From Rozella allomycis CSF55 (Eukaryota): DNA of 20,000 bases. Location of the stretch: positions 366,390 through 386,389 of the forward strand of contig KE561209.1 of assembly GCA_000442015.1 (NCBI GenBank). The letters run 5' to 3'. The notes beneath the pieces are model-generated. The model was not told the origin of the DNA. It saw only the letters and a program-made list of their open reading frames with translations, and searched no databases. Shown piece by piece: positions 838 to 20,000 of this stretch (the stretch's first letter is position 1; each line of letters starts with the position of its first letter). The position numbers were made by a program, and so were the translations under genes.

Positions 838-2355
838 ATGGATTTACAAGATTACTTTGTTGCACAGACCCAAGCATTGAATCAAATATCAGAAAAGCTT
901 TTGGCAGTGAGTGCTGGAAGATCGGGAATGCCTAAAATTAGTGAGCCAGAATATTTCTACGGAAATCCAAAGAAACTTGCCGCTTTCCTGAGACAATTAG
1001 AGTTTGTGTTTGAATTGAATGAACAAATGTATAACACTGATAACAAGAAGATTATTTATGCAGCTTCATATTGTCGAGGACCTGTGAGCAATTGGTTAGA
1101 GTCATATTGGCTCATTGATGAAACATTAAGAACATACGAAGATTTTGTATTACAATTAAAGAGACAAATTGGATTAAGAGAAAATAAAGTAGCTATTCAG
1201 CAAGAGATAATGAAAATGAAGCAAGGGAGCAAGTCTGTGAGTGCCTTAATCGCTGAGTTTCAACGACTTGCACCTCTTTCAGGTTTTAATGATGAAGCCA
1301 TTCAAGCATTTGTATTTAAGTCCCTTAACCGAGATATTCAGCAAACTCTTGAGTACCACAATGAACCCAGAAATCTCCAAGAATTTTATAATTTACTTTT
1401 ATTGATTGAGGAAAGAAAATTGATAAATAAAATGTATTCTTTTCAAAAAACAACGAAACTGAATGATGAGTATCAGAATAATCTTGAACCAACTGAAACA
1501 TCAACATCAGAACCAATGATAATTGACGGAACATTCAACAAATTCTCTAAATTAACAGTGGAGGGTCGTGAAAAATGTAAGAGAGAAGGGCGTTGTTTTC
1601 GCTGCGGAGCGAAAGGACACTTAGCAAAAAATTGTACGACTAATTCTAATAGTTCTATAAAGAACAATTTATCTACGTACCATCTTGTTTTTCCTATTTC
1701 TTTTATGAATGATATTTGCACTCATGTTCTCATTGATTCGGGCGCCTCAACTTCGTTTATTGATAAAGATTTCGCTCAACACTACAGTATTCCGTCATCC
1801 ATTAGGTCGCATAGTGAAGAAATTGAAACCATTGATGGACAACGGTTGAAAATTGATCGACAATGTGAACATTTAACATTTGTTATAAATGAACAAGCAT
1901 ATCAGCATACTTTTAAATTAATTGGAAGTCCACACTTCAATATTATTTTAGGTATGGATTGGTTAGTTAAAACCAATCCCAATATTGATTGGAAACATCG
2001 AACCATGAATATAAATCTGGAAACTAATTGTAGAAATATTTCATGTAATAAGCCTAATGATTCTATATTATCCAATTCAAAAACATCAAATACTTATCAA
2101 ATGCATAAAGCAAAGAAATTAATTCATTCTATTAACTCCATCTTAAAAACGGATATTGATATTCATTCAAATCTCCCAGAAATTTATCATGAATATCTTG
2201 ATGTATTTAGTGAAGAAAATGCGTCCCAATCACCAGAGCATTCAGAATTTGATATTACAATTGAATTATTGAAAGACACTAAACCACCGTTTGGTCCAAT
2301 ATACAATTTATCACAAGACAAATCAATCAAGAGCCTTAAAGATATATTTAGATGA
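838..2355 (+). CDS. Retrotransposon Gag (capsid + CCHC zinc knuckle) fused in frame to aspartic protease; ends after a frameshift at the start of RT
   Basis: 505-aa open ORF with PEYFYGNPKKLAAFL capsid-like start, CX2CX4HX4C, DSGA protease motif, IILGMDWL and PPFGPIYNLS (RT N-terminus). Confidence 0.88.
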   Translation: MDLQDYFVAQTQALNQISEKLLAVSAGRSGMPKISEPEYFYGNPKKLAAFLRQLEFVFELNEQMYNTDNKKIIYAASYCRGPVSNWLESYWLIDETLRTYEDFVLQLKRQIGLRENKVAIQQEIMKMKQGSKSVSALIAEFQRLAPLSGFNDEAIQAFVFKSLNRDIQQTLEYHNEPRNLQEFYNLLLLIEERKLINKMYSFQKTTKLNDEYQNNLEPTETSTSEPMIIDGTFNKFSKLTVEGREKCKREGRCFRCGAKGHLAKNCTTNSNSSIKNNLSTYHLVFPISFMNDICTHVLIDSGASTSFIDKDFAQHYSIPSSIRSHSEEIETIDGQRLKIDRQCEHLTFVINEQAYQHTFKLIGSPHFNIILGMDWLVKTNPNIDWKHRTMNINLETNCRNISCNKPNDSILSNSKTSNTYQMHKAKKLIHSINSILKTDIDIHSNLPEIYHEYLDVFSEENASQSPEHSEFDITIELLKDTKPPFGPIYNLSQDKSIKSLKDIFR

Positions 2356-3297
2356 AAATCTTAAAAAGAAATTTATTGTTGCGAGTAAATCTCCTGCAGC
2401 TTCACCAATTATGTTTGTAAAATAGAAAGATAAATCTTTGAGACTTGTTGTAGATTACAGAAAATTGAATAATATAACCGTGAAAAATAGATATCCAATA
2501 CCACTTATTCAAAATTTAATAGATAACTTAAAAGGCTCAAAAATACTTACAAAATTGGATTTAAGAGGTGCTTGTAATTTAATAAGAGTTAAAAAATCAG
2601 ATCAATGGAAAACAGCATTTCGTACAAAGTATGGTCAATTTCAATACCAAGTAATGCCATTCGGATTATGTAACGCACCGTCCATTTTTCAAAATATGAT
2701 GAATAGTATTTTTCATGATTTATTAGATCAGTTTGTTGTTATTTATTTGGATGATATTTTGATATTTTCTAAAAATCTAGAAGAACATTCTCAACATGTT
2801 AAAATAGTTTTGCAAAAATTGAGAGAACATAATCTTTTTGCAAAACTGGGAAAGTGGTTTTTCCATGTCACAGAGGTTGATTTGTTAGGTTTTGATATTA
2901 ATACTAATGGTATTTCGATGCATAAGAATAAAGTTCAGTCAATTGAAAAATGGGAAGAACCAAAAAATATTAAACAGTTGCAAAGATTTTTGGGAGTCAC
3001 AAATTATAACAGAAAATTTATTTCTAATTACCCTAAAATTGCTGTACCATTGACCAATTTATTGAAGAAAAATATTGGAAAATGTAATTGGACAAATGAG
3101 TGTAAAAATGCATTTAAATTATTAAAATCAAAATTTATTAAAATGCCAATTTTGCAATTTCCAGATATGACTAAACCATTCATTGTTCAAACGAATGCTT
3201 CGGATTTTGCTCTGGGTGGCGTATTATTACAAACTGATTCTGAAAACATTCTACATCCAGTTGCTTAGCATTCCCGGAAATTCTCGTCTGCAGAGCT
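2322..3297 (+). pseudogene. Disabled pol (reverse transcriptase + partial RNase H)
   Basis: ATCA tandem duplication at 2322-2329 shifts frame; removing it restores QDKSRALKIYLDENLKKKF. In-frame TAG at 2423-2425 (FVK*KD) and 3266-3268 (HPVA*HSRKF). RNase H TDASD reads TNASD (AAT 3194-3196). Confidence 0.85.
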
Positions 3298-5085: not shown

Positions 5086-5624
5086 AAAGCCTAAAGGTGA
5101 AATGAGAATATAAAGCTAGCTCCTGGTTCTAAAAAATTAATGAGAAAAAGACAAAAGTATGTATTCTACTACCCTTCTTCGTTGAAGTCTTGATTAAATT
5201 ATTATCTTTTCTTATCGATTATTACGAGGAGACCATTAGCCTCTAAGCTCAAAAAGATTTAATTAAGATTTCCAATCAGCGATCAGCGATGTTTAATTTT
5301 AATTTTTAGATATCATTGTTGCACTCTAAATACTACAAGTGTGATTTTTTTCGATTTTCGCTCGTTAGAGAAATGACTGGTGACTACTAAATCGCAATTG
5401 TAAATAAATTAATTGACCGTTCATTACTATTACGGAATTCCTTTACAGTTTCGGCACCATGACCATCATTGAAAATTGACCACTTCTGAACTCTGACAAG
5501 ACTTGAAGTGGTGTATTTCCAAAATATTTCCTACTATGGCATTCTAAAGGCTTAAAATTATTAATTAACCATTTCATTATTGTGAGGCATCTTTCTAGTT
5601 TCTGGATCTCTGCGCCACATTGCC

Positions 5625-8153
5625 ATGATTCCTAATTATGCTGAACAAGAGTTGTGTGAACATATTAGAAAAGCACTTAATAATGAAGAAACAGCACCCA
5701 AGCAGAAACATGTGAGGGCCATAATAGTTTTCGCCTTTGATTACGGAACAAGTGGACCGTTTTGGAATATGTTAGGATTGTTACCTATATTTTCTGATGA
5801 AATAGTCTGCTTTAAAAGTCTTATAACTATTCATAAACTTGTCAGTTCCGGACCGCCGATCGTAAGGTTATTAAAAAGTTATAAAAGTGTATCAAGGATG
5901 CCATAAAGAACATTTCGATATTAGATAACTGTGATCGATATGCGTCTGAAGGATATATGGGCTATTCTGTTCTAATAAAGCTGCATGTTAAGTTTTTGAA
6001 AAAGAAATTAGAACTCCATAAAATCCATCCAGAGTTTACTGGATCGTTTGACTTTAAGGAATACATTGCCTTAAAAAGAGTTGATGATCCAAATGATGGG
6101 TAATTTATTTATTCCAACTTTTCAGTTATTTAACCATTAGTGAATTGATGGATTTGCAAGATTCCATTGAACAATTTCAGCACACAGTTTTCTCAAGTTT
6201 TAGGCCATCATCTAATAACGAATGTAGAATTTCATCTTTGGTTCCATTGATCGAAGAATCCTTTGGTATTTACCAATTCGTCACATCCTTGCTCAAGGCT
6301 ATGTTTAATAGTAATCAGTTGTAACAAGGAATATAGTTTTAAGCGACGATTGCGATGTTTTGTTGCCTTTAGTTGATAAATATAAAATTCAATTTACTGC
6401 TTTGAGAAAGTTTTACGACGAGTGTCGTAACATTCGCTTTCTGTCTACCCTTGTCAATATACCCCAGCTTCCTCAAGTAAATTCACGAATAAAATCTGTT
6501 AGAATCCTCCAGACTTTTCTAAATGTTCATCTCAGGCAATATCGAGAAGCGGTTCACAAAATTTGGTTGTTGCCCGGGAACCAGAAACAACCTTGGTTGA
6601 GACAACAGTAACTTATAATCATTTTCAGGAGCAACAAAACCAAGAGATGTCACAGCAAATTCAAACTTTGCTTCTGCAAAATGAGATGGGAAAGCAAGCA
6701 CTGCAGCAGTATCAACAACATCTCAATGACATGCAATTTCAAATACAGCGATATAATTCAATTTTAGTTGAAAAAGAATCTTCCTACATGCAATCTTTAA
6801 ATGCGGCAAATGAAGAAACATCAATGTGGAGAAATAAATTCGAAGGCATGTCTAAAATCTACCAGGGTTTAAGGGGCGAGCATTTAGAACTTTTACAGAA
6901 GTACACGAAATTATCACAATCAAGTGATAAAAAGGGTGAAATGAATCAAAAGGTTGAAGCTTTAAAAGCCGAATTAGAAAAGAAAAGTGTGGAATTGATT
7001 GACAAACAAGGGGCACTTGAAAGGCTTAGAAATGATCTTCAAGAAGAAAAGTCCCGCAACTCCAACTTTGTGATTAACACAAAGTCACATTTAGAACAAC
7101 TGGTGGCTTCATTGCAAAATAAGAATGAAAGTTTGTCGAATGAAATCGCATTAAAGGATATTGAAATAAAAAATCTTAAGAGTGATTTATTAATGATGAA
7201 TGAGAAGCTTGAAGTAAAAATTTCACATACTTTTAATTTAGGCGATGAAGCAAAACGCTGATAATGAAATCGCTTCCTTGAAAAATGTAATCAATTTTCT
7301 TTGTATTCACAAGGCGTTACAATTAGAAACTTTACAGACAAAGGAACTTCAAAATCGAGAAATGGTGCTAATGAACGAAATAGTTGATCTTAAAAGTAAA
7401 AATAATCAATAAATATTAAAAGATAAATTAGGCGATGAAAATAAATCAAAAGACCTGGATGCTGAAATGAAGGAAGCTTTTCTTATAGTTCAGAATGCAA
7501 TTGACAGGCTTGGAAGTCTAAAATCAGATGCCGGTTTTTTAATAAAGTTGGATAAAAATATCCATGAAAAAATCATTGAAACGACAATGAATTTAATGGA
7601 TTCTATTGCAAAATTAATATATGCAGCCACTTTAACCCAAAAGGAAATTGTAAGCCAGGGTAAAGACACCGCCAACCCCGATCAATTCTATAAAAAGAAT
7701 AGTCGATGGACTGATGGACTTATTTCCGCTGCCAAATCCGTGGCCCTTACCTGTAAATTTCTTGTAGAAGCCGCTGATGGCGTGCTGAATGGTACAAACG
7801 TTTTTGAAGAACTAGTGGTGGCTTCCCATGAAGTTACTGCCAGTACTAGTCAACTACTCTCTGCTTCTAGAGTCAAAGCTTATCCTAATAGTCAAGCATT
7901 GAAGCAATTAGAACAGGCTGCTAAACAAGTTTCTGAAGCAAACAAACTTCTTGTACAATCTGTAGATAACGTCAATGAAGAAGGTGATGTAACTAATGCC
8001 ATGAAATCTTTAAGCATGAAACAGTACAAAGTATTGGAAATGAAGCAACAGGTAGAAATCATGACTTTGGAAAAACACTTATCGGTTGCAAGAAAAAAAT
8101 TGACGGATATGAGAAAACTTTCTTATCACACCTCGGATGAAACCATTGAATAA
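5625..8153 (+). CDS. SLA2: Sla2/End4/HIP1 endocytic adaptor (ANTH + coiled coil + I/LWEQ talin-like), about 780 aa
   Basis: ETAPKQKHVR, DPNDGYLTISELMDLQD, FYKKNSRWTDGLISAAKSVA, ASRVKA, EMKQQVEIMTLEK. Introns 5862-5887, 6100-6125, 6311-6336, 6477-6502 (26 nt each), 7214-7241 (28), 7287-7313 (27, stop-free, uncertain) and 7396-7422 (27) give one continuous frame. Confidence 0.95.
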
Positions 8154-8347
8154 ATAATTTCTATTTCTACGCAATATAGTCGAGTTATCTCTTTTATTTC
8201 TTTTTTGTGATACCTACATGATGTAAACATGTCGACGGTGGCGCCAGTGCCATACAAGTGAATTTTAGATCATATTTTGCTCTAGTAAAATTTGAGACAA
8301 CATGAATTTGAAAAAATAATTCTTTTACAATTTATTAGAATCCAAAA

Positions 8348-9425
8348 CTATTTTCCCTTTGCGCTTTGCAGCATTTTGTCGACATGTGAATATTCAATAT
8401 TATATTTCTTAATGGCAGCCTATGAAATTAAAGGGCAGAAACTTACTTTCCAAATGTCGAAAGTGAAGCCAAAAACAAACTGTCTGTTATTTTGTTCCTC
8501 CAATTCTTCTAAATTCTGTTCATTGATGTAAACCATTAGTTCTTTGTTTTCTTCCTTTAAAGTCACTCTTTTCTCTTTCACCAGGAATGAAAAAAAGAAT
8601 AAAAGTTCAACTGATCTCCCAAACGAATTGGGATCGATCAAAAACTTGAAAAAATTTATTGGATTCTCTTGCTCCAGACATCTAAACAGAGAGAAAACCA
8701 TTTTGGTCGTTTCTGTTGTACTATTTACTAGGACGTCTTCCCTTGATAACTCTCTGGGTCTTTCAACTTCTGCTTTTAACTCGTTATTATTTCTTTTTCT
8801 TTCAATCTTCCTTTTTTCCTTTTTCTCTATTTCAAATGACCCAAGCCTGTTTATTATGAATCTAAATGTTACAATGAATTAAAGGTAAAAACACCACAAG
8901 TGGCATTGAGAGCCATTGCACCAACTGCCCTCCAATCGATTCTACCATGCGGTCGTAATTCTGGCTGTCGTGAAAATAAGTTTTTAACTTGATCTCTAAA
9001 GGTACCTAAATCTAACGGATGACGACCAAGTTGTAACTTTGACACTTTTTCAGCACTCAAATCGGCAGATATCATAAGCAACCTCGCATCTAATACTGCT
9101 TCGGATGTTCCGCGGACTATTTTTAATAAATGATTGAAATACTGTGCTGGGATAATTGGTTTGCCCGCTCAACAACTTCACTTAGTAGCTATTATCAAAT
9201 ATGCAACACTTTTACATTCGAATCAGCCTTCAATGCCTCGGCTTTATTTTCTTCTAGAATTTTTGCCATGTTTCGGTACTGGTTTCTTACAAATCTCTTT
9301 ACACCTATGGACTGATTAGGATCGTACAACTGAGTTTCCTGTATTTTTTGTTTTTTGGTTTGGCTATTTAAGATGTTATTTCGTTCTCTTTCCGAATAGT
9401 TTTCCTCTTCTTCCATCTGTTGCAT
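8348..9425 (-). CDS. NSE4: Nse4/EID3 kleisin subunit of the Smc5/6 complex
   Basis: TSEAVLDARLL, ETTKMV, FLIDPNSFGRSVELLFFFSFLVK, WKAAIKKYNI. Introns 9189-9215 (27), 9117-9142 (26), 8847-8872 (26), 8420-8446 (27). Confidence 0.88.
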
Positions 9426-9540
9426 TTTTACAAGAAAAAGAAAATGTGAAATATCTATTTTAACGTTTACATCCGAAAACCTGTAAAGAGGGATAAAATA
9501 GATGCAAAAATATAAAAAATGAAATGTTCAAATGTATCAT

Positions 9541-9929
9541 TTATTGTTGAATGGTAACCTCAACATCAACTCCAGTTTCAATTTTGAATGATGTGATTTG
9601 TCTGACAATTTCAGTTGGGCTTTCCAAATCAATAACACGCTTGTGAATGCGCATTTCATAACGGTCCCAAGTCTTGGATCCTTCACCATTTGGTGTTTTT
9701 CTTGTAGTAATACGTAGAGTTTTAGTTGGCATGCGAACTGGTCCTTTGACTGGAAGTTCTTTTTCTTTTGCACGTTGAATTAACTCGGAGCAAACTAAAT
9801 TTACAAAAAAAATCACAAAATACCTTTCTCAACTTTGCTTACATCACGAGAAGTAAGGGTGACACGAATACGATGGATTTTTAATGGAGCAGATTCTTCT
9901 TGTCCAGCTTTAGCAACTTTGGAAGCCAT
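9541..9929 (-). CDS. RPS20: 40S ribosomal protein S20 (uS10), 119 aa
   Basis: [51 protein letters not shown]. One 29-nt GT-AG intron at 9795-9823. Confidence 0.98.
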
Positions 9930-10485
9930 TTTTCAAAAGGGTTTCTAGAGGGGCTTGGTTTTTTTTCAAATGCTTGAAAATTCCGAAAATTCGAAAACAG
10001 CGTCTGAGTAAGAAAAGAAAAAAATGTTGTATTTTATAAACCTCACGATTTTTAGTGCTTTTAGAAAACTTTCGGACAAACTTTGAACTAGATAATTTTA
10101 TGATGGCACATTAATTTACAACCATTTGATGGTTCACTTAATATTTCTAATCATGATTTGGCTAATATTATGTCAAATTGAAGCCCGAGACCGCAAAACA
10201 AATTTTCTTTGATATCGCGCTGAGTGAATATTCATAAATCGAGCTTTAGCAAATGGCCATACAAATAAGTCACCAAAATAAAACATAAATAACAATGTTA
10301 TTCTCTCTATTTAGTATTTATCAATGTCAGTATAAACTCTTTCAACAATGGCCCTCATTTTTGTTTAGAAAAGAAAAGTAATACGTGACTCCGTAAGATT
10401 GACTTTGTAATAAAATAATATTTATGTTCGACATCATTAATTTTACTTTATAGACGCCTCCAATAAACGAAATTTGCACCCCTGC

Positions 10486-13315
10486 ATGACTGTAAAGGAA
10501 GCCTCGTTATTTCCTAAAACCCAGAGAAGACATAATATAGATGTTGATAACGTGACAATATTGGATAATTTTGTAATATTTTTTAGTAAATCACAAAGGG
10601 AACACTGTCTAATCTGTTTGATATTGCAAAGAGGGGGCCGTTTGTTGGGAATGGAATAGTATCGGCAGAAAACAAGGCCAAATATCCAAATCAATGTGGG
10701 GCTAAATTTGAGTTTAAAATATACCAGTATTATATTACGTACTACGCGGAGACACCTTTGAAACCTGATGTATGGTTGAGAGGCGATCATTGTTATTTTA
10801 GGATTATGGTAAGCGGTACATAGTTTAGAGATTAGAATCCTTCATTTAAATATAAAGCTACGTATGAAGAATGCTGGAAGATGTTTCAATTTACTTCATT
10901 GTCTTTTGAATATTTGAAGGAAAACAAGGGCAAGTCTTTTGATTGGAAGAATTATTTTGAGACGGTAAGTCATTTTTGGAATGTTTAAAAGCTTATTATA
11001 AAGTTAGAGTTTAAAAGCCAAGAGTCTTTGATTGATTTTTTGTTTGAAGTTTCATCATTTTTTATGAATCAGTTGAGTCAAATGGCAGAGTATGAAAGAG
11101 ACTGTGGCGATCATATTGTTGTAAAATTGATGCAAAAAAGTCTTCAAACAAAATCCAATCAATTTAAGGGCTTGTTGGATTTAGAGATTGACCTCCCCCT
11201 TAAGCCCCTTGTAGCGTACACGAAAGCATTAAAGCCACAATGTATACCTCCATTGATAACGATTGTATTTTAAATGAGTTTTCGTAACAAAGATTAATGA
11301 TTTGAATTATCGTAATGGTTATTTCAAGTGCCCTGCATGCTATCAATCGTTTGACACTAGTGTAGATGGTGTTATTGATAATATTCTTTTACCGCATATA
11401 CAACAGCACATGAAATCACTTTGCGGCGATTTGAAAACGGAAGAGGAGTGGCTTGGTATCTACAATTCTTCGGCGGCAAAAATAAAGAAGCATGAAAAAT
11501 GTGACAAGGAGCATTATTTTTCACGATCTTTTCCCAGCAGAAATGTGATCAAGTCAAACTTTGGGGTAATGTGATGTTTTTTTGATGTTAGTTAATCAAA
11601 GGTGTGAAAGAAGAAAAGGTTTGTTTTATAGAGCCAGAAGTGGAGGAGATTAAAGTGAAAGAAGAGGTTTATTCAGAATTTGATGATTTTGTGGATATTC
11701 CCCTGATGGAGCCTTTAAATAATGTTGAAAATAGGGTATTTTATTTTGATTTAAAAGATAGCCTGTACGTGAGACCAGGGTTAATAATCAACCTTTGAAG
11801 AAGAAAAGGGCCAAGAGCGACAAGCCTGAATCGTCTAAAATAAATAATGCGGATTTAAAGCAAGAAAATGAAGACTATAGATTAGAGATAGAAATTCCAT
11901 CGATGAATTTGGAAATAAGTGAAATGACCCTTGATGAAGAGAGCGAAGAAGAAAAAGTTTTTAAAAAACGCAGAATTAGAAATAGAAAAGACAAAAGACG
12001 AAGAAACAGAAAAGAAAAAGAATTTCTTCCAGAGATTTTGACGTTTGCGAGAACCCTTGCGAATGATCTTTTGACTTTTTTGAAAACATTTGGCAATGAC
12101 AATCGAAGTGTTCCATTTGAAGGAAGCAAAGAAAAGGAGCAAATTTGTTTTAATGTTATGTGTTATTTCGGTCTGGGGATTGTAGAAGCAAAGGAGGTGT
12201 ATGACACTGTATTGAAATCTGATTATGAATTGATTGAAGAGTTTATAACGCTCGCAGAAGATTGTGGAATATTGGAAGAGATTTCTTTATTTTGTTTGAG
12301 ACCAAAAAGAGTAAAAACTATTTCCGAAATTTCCAATAAATTTTCTTTGGATGAATTGGCAGAAAAGATTGGAAGAAGCAACAAAAATAATGTAGAAATG
12401 AAAACAAGACAATCTAGAAATAAAAGAAATAAACAAATTAATCAAAATAGCACGAAGAGTGAAAATGTTTCAACTGAAGATTTAAGGAAGGCTATTGAGA
12501 TTTATAAGAAGAAATTTAACGTTGAGATTTCTATTGAAGATCTTTTTGAAATTTTAGAAAATTTAAACGAAGCAGAAAAAGAAGCAGAAGTAGAAGTAGA
12601 AGAAGTAAAGGGAAAGAGCTTTAAAGTAAATGAAGAAAACTTTGATGTAAATGAAAACTTTAAAGCAAATGGAGAAATCGTTGAAGAGATGCGAGAAAAC
12701 TTTAAAGACAAGAGGGAAGAAGAAGAAATACCAAAGGAAGAGAGGAGAGAAATCTTTGAAACAAAGGCAGAAGAAAGAGAAGACGAAGATTTAGAATTGG
12801 AAGAAACAAAAATTGAAGATGAAAAAAATGATCTGGAAATTGAAATCTTTGATGAAAATAAAAAAATAGATCTACATTTGGCATTGGATGATTTCATTAT
12901 TGAAGACGATCCAGAAGATCTTTTAATTGAAGACCCTGAACCTCTAAGGGACCCTGAACCTCAACTTTTCTTAGAACCTTCGAGGGACCCTGAACCTCAA
13001 ATATCTACAAGGTCTAAGCCTCCACTATTAATAGAAACATCAAAATCCAAAGTAGAAAATTTGATTGACGTTGTGGAAATAGAAGCGGACAGTTTTGCAT
13101 CAATTTTGTCAGAATATGAAAATTCAAACGCCCCTCTAAGAAATGTTTCAAATCAAAATTCAAATTCTTTTTGGAGTTGCAAAACATGCAATAAAATGCG
13201 TCAAGGTGCAAAATGTTTATTTTGTGGAAGTTTATGGGAATGTCCCAAATGTCTTTTAAATCACTCGATGAATTCTTCATGTCCGAAAAATCAGAAAATA
13301 ATTTACATTGAATAA
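10486..13315 (+). CDS. About 889-aa putative chromatin protein: N-terminal DNMT1-RFD/RFTS-like domain, C2H2-like finger, long acidic/basic region, C-terminal Cys-rich fingers
   Basis: Introns 10573-10598 (26), 10809-10835 (27), 10965-10991 (27), 11265-11292 (28), 11566-11591 (26) and 11736-11761 (26) join the fragments into one frame. The domain call is by eye from YITYY..PDVWLRGDHCYFRIMNPSFKYKATY..SFFMNQL. The start codon is uncertain. Confidence 0.7.
12932..13000 (+). repeat. Imperfect coding repeat GACCCTGAACCTC x3 (DPEP motifs)
   Basis: Three copies of gaccctgaacctc encoding EDPEPLRDPEPQLFLEPSRDPEPQ. Confidence 0.85.
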
Positions 13316-13382
13316 AGGGTAATTTTAAAGACTAAAAGATTTAAAATTTATAATCTAAAATATTAAAGATTCTTTTATTTAT

Positions 13383-16341
13383 TTAATTCCACCATTGGAA
13401 ATCTTTCGATGATGGCAACGGGAGAATTCTAACAGGCTCATCAAAATCTATCAAGGAAATTTCATTTGTGATTTTTCCAATTTCACTCTTTTCAGAATTC
13501 ATGCTTCTTCTTAATTCATTTCGAAGTCTTTCTTTCTTTTCCTTGTCTATCAATAAAACCTTAATTAAAAATGTCGACTTTACAGGCTTATGATCCGATA
13601 GTCTCAATTCTGCTCTTGAATACCCTTGTTGCACAATCTTTATTAAATACATCAATCCTCTCTTACATTCTGCCCCTTAAATAAAATGCGATCAGTCCAC
13701 GCTGGAATTCTCTGCTTCTCGCTAGTGTCGTATTCATCAGTCCCATTGTCATATTTGTACGTTGGATTAAAATTGATTTCTCCTTCAATAAACCCTTTAA
13801 ATGCATTTCCCTGTTTTAATTGATTATTTAACTTTCATCATGTCAAACATTGCTTACCTGGTCCTGGCGAAATAGTTCACTCAAATTTCCTTTTGATATC
13901 AAGTCTTTGGTTTGCCAGATTCCTAAATCAATTCGATAATTAAAATCTCCCAGCCAAATCACATTGTCGTGCACTTCAATTTTCTTTCCATGCTTAAACA
14001 CCAAGCCATCGGATATCGTCATGTAATCTCTATTCCTTTCCTCCACATTTCCATGTCCAGCTGCCAAATGCGCACAAATAAAACAAAACGACGAATCATA
14101 ATAATCAAATCTAATGCCAATGCCACCTTTATTCCCTGCCATCCCCTTTAACCCGGTCTATCATCTTATTCATACACACTTACTTTCTTTATTCCCACCT
14201 CTACATTTCGAAGATTTTTTATTATTGATAACTTTGCAAAAATACACAATGACGCGCCAACTAGCTGTCCGGATGTTACAAGGGTATATTTTTCACCATC
14301 CGCATTCAGTGACTTTTGTATTTGTCTTTCCCACAAAAGTCGCTTATCTGGATCGGTCATCATGATCTTTCTTTGAAACATCCTTGAATCTTACCTGCGC
14401 TGGAGTCAATTCCACAATCTCCTGAAATCCAATCACATACAAATCAGGATGGCTTTCTAAAACAGCAATCAAAAAATAGACTACCAGATGATAACCAGGG
14501 TGAAAGGCTTTCATGATTTATTGAAGGGCTCTTTCCATTCACATTCCACGTAGCAACAAAGACCGAAAGTGGAAAGTATGTTGAATACTCATTAATGCGA
14601 TTGTCCAATTCAATTCTAATCGAATTCAAAATAGGATTAAAAATAAAAACCGACGAATTTGGAATATTTCCTAAAAGTATATCAATGGTAGTCTGCTTAG
14701 ATTTATCAGTAAAATTGTTAACGTAAAATCGTTGTGCTGATTTTTTAGCGTCATCCATGAGTCCTGTAACTTATTTTAAAAACTCATTACCGGCAATGGT
14801 GCGCTTTCCAGTCCGCGTAAATCCAGACTTTAGGGCACCCGTCCCAGTGTATATTCGACTCAACTCATCGCCATTGTCCGCCCAAATGTCATTGAAGACT
14901 GGATGATCACTAAACTTGGCAGGAATTAACTTTAAACTCAAAAAATTATCTAAAACATATTTAACAATTGCCGTTTGCACAACATTTGTCCTTTTTAAAA
15001 ATACAGACAGGGGTACCTGTCCAAACAATCCAAGCAATTCACTCTCATAACGCCCCTTTGCATCATTAAAAGTTCATTTGTCTTCAAATCAATCACAGAG
15101 TACATTTGCTGCTGCAAAGCTACTTCTATCATTGTTAGCAAAACGCTGAGTCGATCGTAGCTTGTTCCTTTCATGTGATAGTGAAAATCAAACGCCGTTC
15201 TAGTTATCGGCATTCCACAGTTTTCTGTTTGAATTCTATATGCATTTCCCAACAATTCTTCTGCGTTCCCATCTCTCTGGGACAAAAGATCAATGATATG
15301 CACATTATCGTATTGATTTATTAAGTCTTCGAAATGACGATCAAAAGCGGGCTGTGTTGCCGCTATCGATCTGGTTATCTGAATTTTATGACCGCCAACC
15401 TGCAACCCTTGTTGTTCCCAGAATACAAAAATTAGAGGCAAAGTTATACTTTACCTGGCACTGATCCTCTTAAAATCACAAAAGAAAACAATTGGTCTGG
15501 TTGATGCTGGAAAACAACCTCCGTCTCCACAAAATTCGCAACATTCCCATCATCGTCAATCCCTCGTACATTGTACCTAGTCCCAGCTCTTTTGCTACTA
15601 AGCCTAGAAAAAACGGCTAAAAATGATTTTTCTCCGTTTATTTTTAAATCACAAACTTCAACAAATCCTTGAATGGCCAATACAAACAATGCACTTGAAT
15701 CTATATATCTTTTCTCTTCTTCCGCCAATTGGGCTCTAAATTTTATTATTTGTTTTAAAATAGATTTGTTCCACACCTTCATTGTAGTTTATTTTTTGTA
15801 TTACGAATCTATCGTCAAATGTTTCGAATAGGTGTCCCTGGGACCTGGTTCTGTTGCAAGAATTTAACGTGAGGTCAAATGAAGGCGAGAAATAAAATGA
15901 TCCCGAACTCATGTATTTTATCAAATCTTGGCAGGGATGAATAATCTTTTGTTCTTCATTTTGAATGGAATCAAAAGACACCATATCATATTTAGTGGAA
16001 TTAATCGAAATACATTCAACAGCCGTGATTCTAAATAATGGGTGTGACAAAAATGATCCAACTCTTTCTACGCTCTGTATACTGATTAAAAAATCATCTA
16101 GCAATAACTTTCATCCACATTATTCACCTTCATTAATTTTAACCATCCCCAGAATTCCGAAACATACTTTTGAGCCTGTAGGTACCTTTATGTTGTCTGT
16201 CACACAAAGCTCGGCATTTACACATTGTATATTTGTTTTATATGGTTTTATAGTTAGCAAAAATGGATTCGATGGGTCAGTACAATGAATAGACACTACT
16301 CTCTGTTTACCACCTTCAATTGTAATGTAGAAATTGGACAT
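13383..16341 (-). CDS. Synaptojanin-like phosphoinositide phosphatase (Sac1 domain + inositol 5-phosphatase; Inp52/Inp53 family), about 893 aa
   Basis: RAGTRYNVRGIDDDGNVANFVETE, RGSVPVFWEQ, RVNCLDCLDRTN, GFQEIVEL, GNKGG, WLGDFNYRI, PTYKYD, PAWTDRIL, SDHKPV. Introns 16098-16127, 15777-15804, 15426-15454 (GT-TG), 14991-15016, 14764-14790, 14457-14484, 14367-14394, 14158-14183, 13832-13857, 13638-13666. Confidence 0.95.
15426..15454 (-). other. Putative non-canonical GT-TG intron, 29 nt
   Basis: GTAAAGTATAACTTTGCCTCTAATTTTTG; removal restores the Sac1 motif RGSVPVFWEQ. Confidence 0.7.
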
Positions 16342-16480
16342 AACCCTGCGCCACCCCTCTTACTATTAAATAGAAATAAAAATAGATCATATTAATGTTA
16401 ATGTAAATTACTAAATAACAAAAAATGTTTATTCTAGTCATGTACTATTTACTAAAATTTTTGCAGTAAAACCCTAGTTC

Positions 16481-17044
16481 ATGAGAAAAGATTTGAAAGA
16501 ACAAGCTATAGCTGAAATCGGACACTTGCTGTTAAAAGGGTGGACTATGACAGATAAAAACTGTTCAATTTGTTCGGTAATATATTTATGTAACATAAAG
16601 TTTCGACTGTCCTTATGCGTGAAAAAGGAAGCGAAAAAACGAAATGCTGTTTCTGTGATTTAAAAAATCAAGAGTCTTCAGCTTTTCATAACATGGTCGA
16701 AAATGTCACGGCCAGCTGTGAGGTTTTGAATGAAATTTGTCCAACTTGTGAAGGAACGGTATAATCACAAATTTTAAGTTTACAAGAACTCCCTTTTAAA
16801 AAATGATGATAAAAGTTTACTTTGCTTGCAATGCAACCAGAAATATTACCTTGAAATTCCGAATAAACCACTTGATCAAGAAAACGAGTCCAGTGAAATT
16901 AATTCCATTCAGACTGAGGTTTTAAGAAACTTAGCTAATGCCCTCAAAGCTTCGAGAGGACTTCTTGACAAGAACCGTGCATTAGGATTCGATCTAATTA
17001 ATGAACTATCATTAACCATACATAAAGTAATAAGCATTGAATAA
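16481..17044 (+). CDS. SSSCA1/ZNRD2 (Auto_anti-p27)-like protein with two zinc-ribbon repeats, about 168 aa
   Basis: IGHLLLKGWTMTDKNCSICSTVLMREK..CCFC and VLNEICPTC..LL..CLQC. Introns 16577-16605 (29, GT-CG; alternative 16572-16600) and 16759-16786 (28). Confidence 0.8.
16577..16605 (+). other. Putative non-canonical GT-CG intron, 29 nt
   Basis: GTAATATATTTATGTAACATAAAGTTTCG; removal keeps CxxC and enters the conserved TVLM..CCFC frame. Confidence 0.55.
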
Positions 17045-17050
17045 AAAAGA

Positions 17051-17066
17051 GTTTTATTAATAAAAC
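17051..17066. terminator. Perfect 16-bp palindrome with AATAAA on both strands, in the 23-bp spacer between convergent genes
   Basis: GTTTTATTAATAAAAC is its own reverse complement; flanking stops at 17044 (+) and 17068 (-). Confidence 0.65.
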
Positions 17067-17067
17067 G

Positions 17068-19324
17068 CTATGCTAAATACTTGTAAAATTGCCTATTTAA
17101 GATATTCAAAGTTTGATACTTGTTTTCTTCATCTCTTTCAATGAATTCTTTTTCAATTAGATTTTCAATCCGCTTTTTAATAACGGAAGGCTCTGGGTGG
17201 AACCTTGATGAAAGGATTTTAATCACTGAAGAGACAAGAATTGTGTGTTCAACTTTACGTCTTGATTTCATTATCCTCACTATGGCTGCATCAATCGTGA
17301 CGTTAAGGATACATACATATTATATGATAGAACTAATAAACAACAAAAAGGATATTGATATCTTCGATCTTCCTCGACTTGTTCAATTGAATGTTCTGCG
17401 TTGGGCACCTCAGAGTTCGATGGTTTTATTTGCAGTAAAGGAACCTTAAACTTGAAAGCTTTGTGTTTAAAAGAATTGTTAAAAGTAAAAATATCAGAAT
17501 TCCTTAAAAAATTGTCGCCGGGGGTCTTTTGTAGAATCTTAAATCTTCCCAGTGCTAGGGAAAGTATATGCCGTTCCATTTCATGAAGAGTTATATTCAA
17601 GGATTTTGAAATTTGATCAGCATTTAATGTTTCCGCCTCCTGAAATAACAAAAGTATAAACATTTGGATTGTAGAGACGTTGACTTCATGTCGACTCTCT
17701 AAAAAGTTTATTACAAGATCCGCTTGACCCTTTCAAGTGAATTTATGAAATTTACTAAATTAAATTGCCAGTTTAGTCTTCTGCCATTGTGTTTGAGCAA
17801 GTATGATTTCTCAAATACATCCAACTGTTCTTTAAGCTTTAAAGGTAAATTAATCGAGGATTTAGTAGATTTGAGAGGCCAGAAGCTCGTTGTCAATATG
17901 ATTGGTTGTAGCGACTTTTCTTTGTAATCTGCGGATAAGGCTGCGTCATTGATCATTCCCTCCATTTTCTGGGTGTATTGAAGGCCACATTCACTCTTTT
18001 TTAATTGGTATAAATGATAGATACTTTTAATCTCACCACGAAACTTTGAATTAACGAAATATCTTTTCTCTGAATCAGCTGCTTTGCCAATAGTTTCCGA
18101 AACAAAAGATCAAAAACATCCTTATCGGGTATAAAACGAAAAATAATAATTAATTTATCAAAAATATTTTCGAATTCTTCTATATTTTCTCTGAATATTT
18201 TGTCTAGATACGAAATCAGGTGTGAACATGCATTAGACTCATTCTTTATGCAGTCTCCAAACGCCTATCGATAAAACAGTGCTAAAGTACCTGATTCATA
18301 CATTTCCATATATCTTTATTGTTTACAAAGCACTCTATTTGAACAAATGATAGATACTCATAAAAATTTATCATTTCATTCATCCAATTACTTTTTTCCG
18401 CTGTAAAATTAACAATAAATGTTCGAACGTAACTATTTAGAACCTCCATACAGCCACAAGGGTTGAATAAATTGTAAAACAACGTCAGGCATTCATAGTC
18501 TTTGTGTGCTAGCCTTTTCGAAATTCCTCCATTCAACTCGCATATCTTAGAGGAGGGTTGTTTGATAAAGATATCGTAAACTAAATCAATAAAGTTCTTT
18601 TGCGAAATTTCAGGAAAAAACATGACAATCCTTTCTTGTTCCCCTTCAAGTCGTGCTTTAACTTTCGCCAAGTACATTTTAGTATCATCGAATTTCATCA
18701 AAATTTCCTGTTCTTGAACAAAATAATCTCTTGTTTTCTCCATGAAATAGTCGTAGTCTATGGACTCCAACTCGTTCATCATTGTAAATATTTTAGACAA
18801 TGTGTCACGCTCAATTATATTCCCATTTCTTTCTTTATTTATTTCTTCAATTAAAGATCCATTTATTTTTGTTAATTGATTGCTAATGACAGTCTCCTTG
18901 AAGCAATCCAAGGCTAATTCCATGGTCTCCCTTATTCTCCTTTGTCTACAATACCCATTATTCATGTAAAGGCACACATCCGATACCATAGACACTGATA
19001 GCTTAAAGTTTTGCCATTCCTTTGACAAGTGTGCCAAATACTGATATCCTTGAAAAATTTCAATCCTCGCACCGATTTCTGAACACTTCAACATGAAGTA
19101 TTCTTCTATCTTTCCATAAAATACTTCTGCTTCTGACATTAAGCATAAGTTATAGCAATATCGATATAATTTTTCAAACGAAAGTTGAGATGTTTTTTGC
19201 CCAAATATTTTTTCAAAGGAGCTTACCAAACAATCCATCATATCTTTGGAAGACAGATTTTCATTATTCTACATTTTTTCTTACATATAGCGCTTACAAA
19301 TCTTGAAAATGGTTTTAGCCCCAT
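17068..19324 (-). CDS. Cullin, most similar by eye to CUL3 (divergent), about 686 aa
   Basis: LSFEKLYRYCYNL, FRFIPDKDVF, LKSECGLQYTQKMEGMIND, HNGRRLNWQ, neddylation motif IDAAIVRIMKSRR, IKKRIENLIEKEFIERD..YKYLA. Introns 19269-19297, 18265-18290, 17996-18024, 17730-17755, 17297-17355 (AT-AC), 17093-17119. Confidence 0.93.
17297..17355 (-). other. U12-type (minor spliceosome) AT-AC intron, 59 nt
   Basis: 5' ATATCCTTT, branch site TCCTTAAC (17302-17309, minus strand), 3' AC; phase-2 removal gives EEDRRYQ-IDAAIVRIMK. Confidence 0.93.
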
Positions 19325-19591
19325 TTTGGAATTTACTTAAAAGACAAACTAAAATCTTCAAAATTCAAACTTCGAAATATAATTATGAAAAATAATACTC
19401 GTGGCTATTTGCCGAATTTAGAACAATTAAATTCTTTTTCACGCATTAATTTTTCAGGCAGTTCATCCGGTTTTTCGTAAATTTTCTAGGTAATTTTGAA
19501 ACCGATTTTTACCTAAAACTTTGTTTCGGAAAAATCGACATTAGGAAATTTGAACTGAATTTGAACCCTTTTTTTGGAAATATCGAAAAAA

Positions 19592-19964
19592 ATGTCGCCA
19601 CCTGATTTGATACCTACCCATAAAGCTATCGCAGATAAATTCGCGTAATGTAGAAAAAGATTACTTATTCAGTGGTATAAATAGTTTAACCTTTTACAAA
19701 CGAGACGATTACGAAGCACTTCGCTTTGAGTGCCTGCGGGAAATGGACTGCGATTTGAAACCGCATAGCCAAGAATTTCGTGAGCTAGATAAAAAAGTTA
19801 AAGGTAACTTGCTAACGAAACCTCTTTCAGGTCTCGTAAGTCCACGGAAGATTGCAAATCAGACTTCCGAGTCGATTTGGGCTAGAGCGGATGCTGATGT
19901 GAGAGCAGTCGTTGATAAAGACGTTTTTGATTCTATTGCAGTCGCGGATATGGATACCAAATAA
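19592..19964 (+). CDS. Small hypothetical protein (about 105-114 aa), divergent from the cullin
   Basis: ATG at 19592 plus a 28-nt GT-AG intron (19645-19672) joins the 19743-19964 ORF frame. Possible stop-free 27-nt intron at 19804-19830. AATAAA overlaps the stop. No recognisable family. Confidence 0.55.
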
Positions 19965-20000
19965 ACATGTCTCGCTTGATTAAAGAATCGAATGAGGAAA

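What the first reader, a model, noticed from the sequence alone, without database searches (positions are those of the whole stretch)
8144..17045. Three unrelated genes end in the identical 11-mer CATTGAATAAA (Ile-Glu-stop fused to a poly(A) signal)
Seen: SLA2 (8144-8154), the RFTS-like gene (13306-13316) and the SSSCA1-like gene (17035-17045) all end C-ATT-GAA-TAA-A. RPS20 (CATTCAACAATAAA) and the 19592 gene (CCAAATAAA) also have AATAAA overlapping the stop. Known: stop codon/poly(A) signal overlap occurs in reduced parasites such as Giardia, Trichomonas and microsporidia. Inference: an extended 3'-processing element embedded in coding sequence that constrains protein C-termini and gives very short 3' UTRs. 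A shared C-terminal -IE peptide signal or chance in a small sample are alternatives.
Basis: partly seen in the sequence, partly recalled or inferred. Interest (0 to 1): 0.72.

Follow-up and report, generated by a model that had tools for sequence, protein, structure and literature searches.

The report
Rozella stop codons inside poly(A) signals
In the fungus-related parasite Rozella allomycis about four in ten sampled genes end with their stop codon built into the standard AATAAA message-end signal, which skews the last amino acid towards Lys, Glu or Gln; the shared Ile-Glu ending of three neighbouring genes is most likely a coincidence on top of that rule.

Summary
The three identical 11-mers are real and each ends its gene as Ile-Glu-TAA, but the 11-mer is not a special element. 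Only 6 of its 74 genome copies are Ile-Glu stops; 3 lie in this window and 3 elsewhere, where 3.0 are expected. The real signal is the AATAAA core. In 378 predicted gene ends from 0.8 Mb (7%) of this Rozella allomycis genome, AATAAA overlaps the stop in 151 (40%), mostly as NAA-TAA-A (105); 5-6% of control TAAs have that context against 38% of terminal ones. Such genes lack a second AATAAA downstream (6 of 105 against 87 of 227), as expected if the overlap is the working poly(A) signal. The last residue is Lys/Glu/Gln in 43% against 19% background. This is a 'dual-use' stop codon, known from Giardia, Spironucleus, Trichomonas and Naegleria and visible in an Encephalitozoon table; this scan met it before in Naegleria and Giardia DNA. 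My searches found no report for Rozella. No RNA was available, so cleavage sites and UTR lengths are inferred.

The parts
8144..8154 (+). 11-mer at the end of SLA2/End4 (gene model 5625-8153); stop TAA 8151-8153 inside AATAAA 8149-8154
13306..13316 (+). 11-mer at the end of an 889-aa gene of unassigned family (model 10486-13315, Cys-rich C-terminus); stop 13313-13315 inside AATAAA 13311-13316
   Evidence: no Pfam family over cut-off
17035..17045 (+). 11-mer at the end of the SSSCA1/ZNRD2-like gene (model 16481-17044); stop 17042-17044 inside AATAAA 17040-17045
9540..9545 (-). AATAAA overlapping the RPS20 stop (CAA-TAA-A; model 9541-9929)
19960..19965 (+). AATAAA overlapping the stop of the 19592-19964 gene (AAA-TAA-A)
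13374..13385 (-). Stop of the synaptojanin-like gene (13383-13385) with AATAAA starting at +2 (overlapping) and at +6
17053..17064 (.). Back-to-back AATAAA pair in the 23-base gap between the convergent SSSCA1-like and cullin stops: - strand copy 12 nt after the cullin stop, + strand copy a second hexamer for the SSSCA1-like gene
   Evidence: read from the sequence
8331..8336 (-). AATAAA 14 nt after the predicted NSE4 stop (8348-8350): the non-overlapping form of the same signal

Best explanation
Rozella allomycis uses canonical AAUAAA as its poly(A) signal and keeps it at or next to the stop codon. About 40% of genes are 'dual-use': the UAA is part of the hexamer (NAA-UAA-A in 28%, UAAUAAA in 8%, U(A/G)AAUAAA in 5%). 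About 8% more carry the hexamer wholly inside the last 20 coding bases. A conserved CPSF30 most likely reads the hexamer and cleavage follows in the U-rich tract behind it, giving 3' UTRs of roughly 10-25 nt. The NAA form forces a final Lys, Glu or Gln codon. The three Ile-Glu endings are the Glu form of this rule plus chance agreement in four more bases. Shown: positional enrichment, codon coupling, mutual exclusion, residue bias, presence of several processing factors. Inferred: binding, cleavage site, UTR length, and compaction as the cause.
For: AATAAA overlaps the stop in 151 of 378 ends (95% CI 35-45%), in 78 of 194 ends from loci not chosen by motif, in 13 of 40 ends whose last exon completes a Pfam domain, and in 66 of 78 loci. 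Terminal TAA lies in AATAAA in 105 of 275; intron TAA in 111 of 2350, off-frame TAA in 680 of 11099, deep intergenic TAA in 311 of 5437. After AA-TAA the next base is A in 105 of 128, otherwise in 56 of 147. A second AATAAA at +4..+30 is found in 6 of 105 fused ends against 87 of 227 non-overlap ends, p 3e-11; the TTTATT control shows no such drop. Hexamers in the last 20 coding bases: 42 seen against 7.3 expected, and 2 of 30 such genes have a downstream copy against 99 of 194. Convergent stop-to-neighbour gaps are shorter for overlap genes (medians 40 and 48 against 77 nt, p 0.002). CPSF30 is present with 17 of 20 residues of zinc finger 2 identical to human; Fip1, CFIm25 and a CstF64 hinge are present. 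11-mer: 6 of 74 copies are IE stops, 3 outside the window against 3.0 expected.
Against: No RNA ends were seen. AATAAA is not depleted in coding interiors (680 seen against 597 in synonymous shuffles; TTTATT behaves the same) or in introns (89 against 92), so the hexamer cannot be sufficient. 78 of 378 ends have no AATAAA from -20 to +74. No UGUA or other upstream auxiliary word was found (TGTA 20 against 17.7). In PMC11529991, overlap counts in Trichomonas and Tritrichomonas were not backed by short UTRs, so an overlap count alone does not prove use. Gene ends come from my own predictor on 7% of the genome; the Pfam-backed subset gives a lower 33%. The tandem-neighbour gap is not significantly shorter (p 0.21). 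A triple of any one 11-mer in some window has only a 1-4% chance per genome under my model, so chance is likely but not overwhelming.
Confidence: 0.8

Rival explanations
1. The pattern is a translation-termination or mutational preference (UAAA as a strong stop context, A-rich codon ends in an AT-rich genome), not a poly(A) signal.
For: TAA is 72% of stops (285 of 394) and the genome sample is 33% GC. NAA last codons are slightly raised even outside the TAA-A class (for example 23 of 114 for TAA plus C/G/T, against 14% background). C-terminal residue biases exist in bacteria (PMC7246954, search listing only).
Against: It does not explain why fused genes lack a downstream AATAAA (6 of 105 against 87 of 227), why the same hexamer peaks at +1, +2, +3 to +40 and -20 to -5, or why A after TAA depends on the two preceding A's. 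Outside the -2 class, Lys/Glu/Gln ends are at background (58 of 273).
Confidence: 0.1
2. CATTGAATAAA is an extended or locally shared 3'-processing or RNA-binding element that co-regulates these three neighbouring genes.
For: Three of the genome's six IE-stop copies lie within 9 kb; chance for any such triple is 1-4% per genome. 13 of 74 copies sit at or within 60 nt after a sense stop. The genome count of 74 is a little above Markov estimates of 45-65.
Against: 44 of 74 copies lie inside genes as sense coding or antisense sequence. The non-signal variant ending in T is raised just as much (53 copies, Markov 33-49). 0 of 194 unselected ends read ATTGAATAAA. There is no visible likeness beyond the 11 bases. 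Shared 11-mers among the other ends are at chance (22 pairs against 19.6). A shared 10-mer triple has a 21% chance per genome.
Confidence: 0.06
3. A C-terminal -Ile-Glu peptide signal (degron or targeting motif) shared by the three proteins.
For: IE is among the commoner final dipeptides in the raw set (10 of 394), but 5 of those were selected by the motif.
Against: 3 of 194 unselected ends are IE; 0 of 119 Sla2 homologues end in IE; the bias is specific to NAA codons before TAA-A.
Confidence: 0.03

Closest known systems
'Dual-use' stop codons in Naegleria gruberi and Tritrichomonas foetus (AAUAAA type; PMC11529991, passages read)
   Same: Same hexamer and the same overlap geometry (2 nt before to 5 nt after the stop).
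   Different: There 11-13% of stops, and for Naegleria backed by a 22-nt median UTR; here 40% of 378 predicted ends and no RNA. The passages read do not report a last-residue bias.
Encephalitozoon cuniculi chromosome II poly(A)-signal table (PMC2803860, passages and supplement file 1)
   Same: Microsporidia are the sister group of Rozella (PMC4589312, passage). Distance -5 is the commonest value (18 of 80 rows), which I read as the NN-TAA-A overlap; AATAAA overlaps in 11 of 80.
   Different: Encephalitozoon uses ATTAAA often (19 of 80 rows); in Rozella ATTAAA at -2 is rare (13 against 110 of 394). The overlap rate is about three times higher in Rozella.
Giardia (AGURAA/WGURAA) and Spironucleus (AGTGA) dual-use signals (PMC9014877, PMC7641422, PMC3916229, PMC11529991; passages)
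   Same: The signal overlaps the stop and biases the two bases before it (NAG there, NAA here).
   Different: Derived hexamer, depleted in coding sequence, reduced machinery. Rozella keeps canonical AATAAA, does not deplete it, and keeps CFIm25, a CstF64 hinge, Fip1 and a human-like CPSF30. Overlap may be as common or more common there (7-18% in one paper, 'most genes' for G. muris in another).
Trichomonas vaginalis UAAA signal (as cited in PMC3916229 and PMC6413133)
   Same: [quoted passage not shown]
   Different: A tetramer there. In Rozella the excess of A after TAA depends on AA before it, so the unit is the hexamer.

Membership tests
Dual-use stop codon / poly(A) signal | Signal hexamer overlaps the stop far above chance | tested here: met
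   151 of 378 ends; 38% of terminal TAA against 5-6% in three controls
Dual-use stop codon / poly(A) signal | Bias is in nucleotides, not amino acids | tested here: met
   NAA 105 against NAG 2 among 161 TAA-A ends; K/E/Q at background outside the class
Dual-use stop codon / poly(A) signal | The overlapping hexamer replaces a downstream one | tested here: met
   6 of 105 against 87 of 227, p 3e-11
Dual-use stop codon / poly(A) signal | Cleavage and poly(A) addition at a set distance; ultrashort 3' UTRs | not testable with these tools
   No RNA run covering the stretch was listed
Canonical AAUAAA/CPSF processing | CPSF30 with conserved zinc fingers 2 and 3 | tested here: met
   L119:751-921 and 965-1066 match human CPSF30 (6fuw_C) at E 2.7e-28 and 9.9e-13; finger 2 is 17 of 20 identical; the first residues of finger 3 straddle an intron and were not aligned. 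Role of these fingers: PMC5760199, passages.
Canonical AAUAAA/CPSF processing | WDR33 with its basic N-terminal motif | not tested
   No query sequence or specific profile was at hand
Canonical AAUAAA/CPSF processing | Partner factors Fip1, CstF64, CFIm25, CPSF160 | tested here: inconclusive
   Fip1, CSTF2_hinge and NUDIX_2 found over cut-off. CPSF_A hits three loci over cut-off that I did not assign among CPSF160, DDB1 and SF3B3 (family members recalled).
Canonical AAUAAA/CPSF processing | Auxiliary elements (upstream UGUA, downstream U/GU-rich) | tested here: inconclusive
   TGTA not enriched (20 against 17.7). T fraction behind terminal hexamers 0.45 against 0.30 behind internal ones, which may only reflect non-coding composition.
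Giardia-type derived signal | Signal depleted inside coding sequence | tested here: not met
   Observed/expected 1.14 in coding interiors, 89 against 92 in introns
Extended 11-nt element CATTGAATAAA | Enriched at stops beyond the AATAAA rule | tested here: not met
   3 ends outside the window against 3.0 expected; 0 of 194 unselected ends

The most novel reading that the evidence does not exclude
In Rozella the poly(A) signal, not protein function, is the main force on protein C-termini: nearly half of all genes carry canonical AAUAAA over the stop or inside their last seven codons (doubling terminal Lys/Glu/Gln and adding Asn-Lys, Ile-Asn and Ile-Lys endings). Messages would then end only a few bases after the stop, and for hexamers near -19 possibly at the stop itself, with poly(A) completing UAA. 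Since Encephalitozoon shows the same overlap, the design could be ancestral to Rozella plus microsporidia and older than their extreme genome reduction, while running on a near-complete, human-like CPSF/CstF/CFIm set.
Probability: 0.3. Interest if true: 0.6.

Novelty: new member of a known kind. Interest (0 to 1): 0.36.

Why it matters
It extends dual-use stop codons to an intron-rich fungal relative, at about three times the rate published for other AAUAAA users, and puts a number on how an RNA signal shapes a proteome's last residue. It offers a simple aid for annotating Rozella-like genomes. It raises a testable question: how a canonical CPSF ignores the many internal AAUAAA copies (770 in the sampled genes) and works with almost no 3' UTR. 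The headline 11-mer itself matters little.

Tried and rejected
RNA: no RNA holder was listed for window 7400-17100; the one listed run (X1, metatranscriptome contigs, share 0.00) gave only short chance pieces when laid on 5400-20000. This says nothing on expression. Reversed-pattern control (74 against 15): rejected as a measure of enrichment, because the non-signal variant gives 53 against 6 and Markov estimates cover most of the gap. Extended G, TG or TTG before the hexamer: not found, either at fused ends or before 72 UTR hexamers. Cleavage site from base composition: T peaks at +11/+12 and +28 to +31 from the hexamer, too weak to call. Depletion of AATAAA in coding sequence and introns: not found. 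Homology between two of the three gene ends: none (E 0.44). A head-on palindromic form of the motif: 0 copies in the genome. CPSF30 hunt: the top PF00642 loci and the PF15663 locus were other zinc-finger proteins before C209 was identified. RPS20 relatives in metagenomes: 0 of 50 distinct ends overlap AATAAA (70 of 80 loci examined; several of the 50 stops lie in introns); these are unnamed, mostly distant eukaryotes, so this only shows the overlap is not a general RPS20 trait. Supplement file 2 of PMC2803860 turned out to be a promoter table.
Full report
Observation. Each copy ends an open frame as ATT-GAA-TAA. The window belongs to an 11.86-Mb genome in 1,059 contigs. Its RPS20 and Sla2 are 100% identical to public records that their sources name Rozella allomycis. 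Pfam supports the SLA2, SSSCA1-like, RPS20, NSE4, cullin and synaptojanin labels; the 'RFTS-like' label found no support.

Method. I wrote a self-training gene finder with no model of the bases around stop codons and ran it on the window plus 80 stretches, 801,500 bases or about 7% of the genome. 39 stretches were centred on 11-mer copies; 41 were chosen without regard to it, from two large contigs only. The finder learned introns of 26-31 nt (92% of 1,279), and its Sla2 model has the public record's length and tail. It is not error-free: it split the cullin gene near 17271-17330. Of 411 ends with enough flank and at least 300 coding bases, I dropped 17 with a last exon under 60 nt, 7 with N near the stop and 9 holding the 11-mer, which left 378.

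The 11-mer is not the element. The genome holds 74 copies. Classified against gene models, 28 are antisense within genes, 16 in sense coding sequence, 15 intergenic or unassigned, 6 within 60 nt after a stop, 6 Ile-Glu stops, 2 at introns and 1 a His-TGA stop. 30 of the 74 were judged on loci of 3 kb or less, so some labels are soft. Three of the six Ile-Glu stops are this window's; the other three match the 3.0 expected from codon statistics. Markov estimates give 45-65 copies. The variant ending in T, which is no poly(A) signal, has 53 copies against 33-49 estimated. None of 194 unselected ends reads ATTGAATAAA, and T or TT before GAA-TAA-A is at background. None of 119 Sla2 homologues ends in IE. 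Against this reading: a triple of any one 11-mer in some window has a 1-4% chance per genome in my model, and 21% for a 10-mer. The word and its limits were picked after the fact in a very large scan, so I read it as chance, with a small remainder.

What is real. AATAAA starts 2 bases before the stop in 105 of 378 ends, 1 base into it in 31 and 2 bases into it in 18; 151 ends (40%, CI 35-45%) have some overlap. The figure is 78 of 194 in unselected loci. I sent every second of 275 eligible last exons (138) to Pfam: overlap was 13 of 40 where a domain is completed, 17 of 52 with any non-transposon hit, 34 of 84 without a hit. Terminal TAAs lie in AATAAA in 105 of 275 cases; TAAs in introns, off-frame and deep intergenic sequence do so in 4.7, 6.1 and 5.7%. 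In the window, 6 of 8 host gene ends overlap the hexamer and the other two have it at +12 and +14.

It is a nucleotide signal used once per gene. Among 161 TAA-A ends the last codon is NAA in 105 and NAG in 2; in the other five stop classes NAA is 17-29% against a 14% background. A follows AA-TAA in 105 of 128 cases but other TAA in 56 of 147. Fused ends have a further AATAAA at +4 to +30 in 6 of 105 cases, non-overlap ends in 87 of 227 (p 3e-11), and the reverse-complement control does not drop. A second class carries the hexamer inside the last 20 coding bases: 42 seen against 7.3 expected, back to baseline beyond -20, with a downstream copy in 2 of 30 against 99 of 194. The last residue is Lys, Glu or Gln in 163 of 378 proteins against 19% background; at the four preceding positions it is 69-91 of 378, and outside the -2 class 58 of 273.

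Mechanism. A CPSF30 gene lies on contig C209, matching human CPSF30 at E 2.7e-28 and 9.9e-13; fingers 2 and 3 read AAUAAA in human (PMC5760199, passages). Fip1, CFIm25 and a CstF64 hinge are present; WDR33 was not tested. I infer that CPSF binds the hexamer, cleavage follows in the U-rich tract, and the message ends some 10-25 nt after the stop. If the hexamers near -19 work, cleavage lies at least about 15 nt behind them. Overlap genes have shorter gaps to convergent neighbours (medians 40 and 48 against 77 nt, p 0.002, pairs counted from both sides) but not significantly to tandem ones (p 0.21), which fits compaction only in part. Results against: AATAAA is not depleted in coding interiors or introns, no upstream auxiliary word was found, and 78 of 378 ends lack the hexamer from -20 to +74.

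What is known. 'Dual-use' stop codons are described in PMC11529991 (passages): 7-18% of genes in Giardia, 11-13% for AAUAAA in Naegleria and Tritrichomonas, with UTR support for Giardia and Naegleria only. PMC9014877, PMC7641422 and PMC3916229 (passages) give the Giardia and Spironucleus cases and cite over half of genes for Trichomonas. In PMC2803860 (passages and supplement file 1) 18 of 80 Encephalitozoon genes have the signal at -5, which I read as the same overlap; 11 of 80 are overlapping AATAAA. PMC6413133 and PMC4589312 were read as passages. Searches for Rozella with polyadenylation (4 papers), with AATAAA (1), with intergenic/untranslated (25 of 45 listed), a microsporidia query (0) and a dual-use query (5) showed no report of this in Rozella. 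The library lacks most subscription papers, including the genome paper as I recall it. The preprint 10.64898/2026.10.14.759114 (passages) treats histone 3' ends in Cryptomycota; its supplements were not seen and may show Rozella ends.

Verdict. Observation confirmed; interpretation partly supported. The Ile-Glu 11-mer is most likely chance. The underlying stop/AATAAA fusion is strong, genome-wide in the sample, and a new member of a known kind, notable for its rate and for the residue bias. Interest 0.36.

Noticed in passing
window 838-3297: Ty3/gypsy-like LTR retroelement (capsid, zinc knuckle and protease by Pfam; RT-like sequence follows), broken into several frames and ending at an N gap.
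   Followed up: partly
window 5625-19964 and L030-L109: Introns are nearly fixed in length: 92% of 1,279 predicted are 26-31 nt, with a sharp floor at 26 and GTA...WAG ends.
   Followed up: partly
window 17053-17064: Palindromic back-to-back AATAAA pair in the 23-base gap between convergent genes. Many convergent stops in the sample lie under 40 nt apart, some 1-8 nt, so 3' ends must overlap antisense.
   Followed up: partly
window 17271-17330: My finder split the cullin gene here. The last exon's frame is open from 17319, so a longer or non-standard intron is probably involved.
   Followed up: no
window 19964-20000: An ATG-led open frame starts at 19967, two bases after the stop of the 19592 gene; either a near-abutting next gene or an assembly frameshift, in which case this stop is doubtful.
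   Followed up: no
window 10486-13315: 889-aa gene with an acidic low-complexity middle and Cys-rich zinc-binding-like ends; no Pfam family over cut-off in five exon frames.
   Followed up: partly
L119:751-1194 (G000:C209): Well-conserved CPSF30/Yth1 gene, missed by my gene finder and ranked low in a CCCH search.
   Followed up: yes
L008:697-836: Two copies of the 11-mer lie in a 52-base direct duplication across an N at a contig end, probably an assembly artefact.
   Followed up: no
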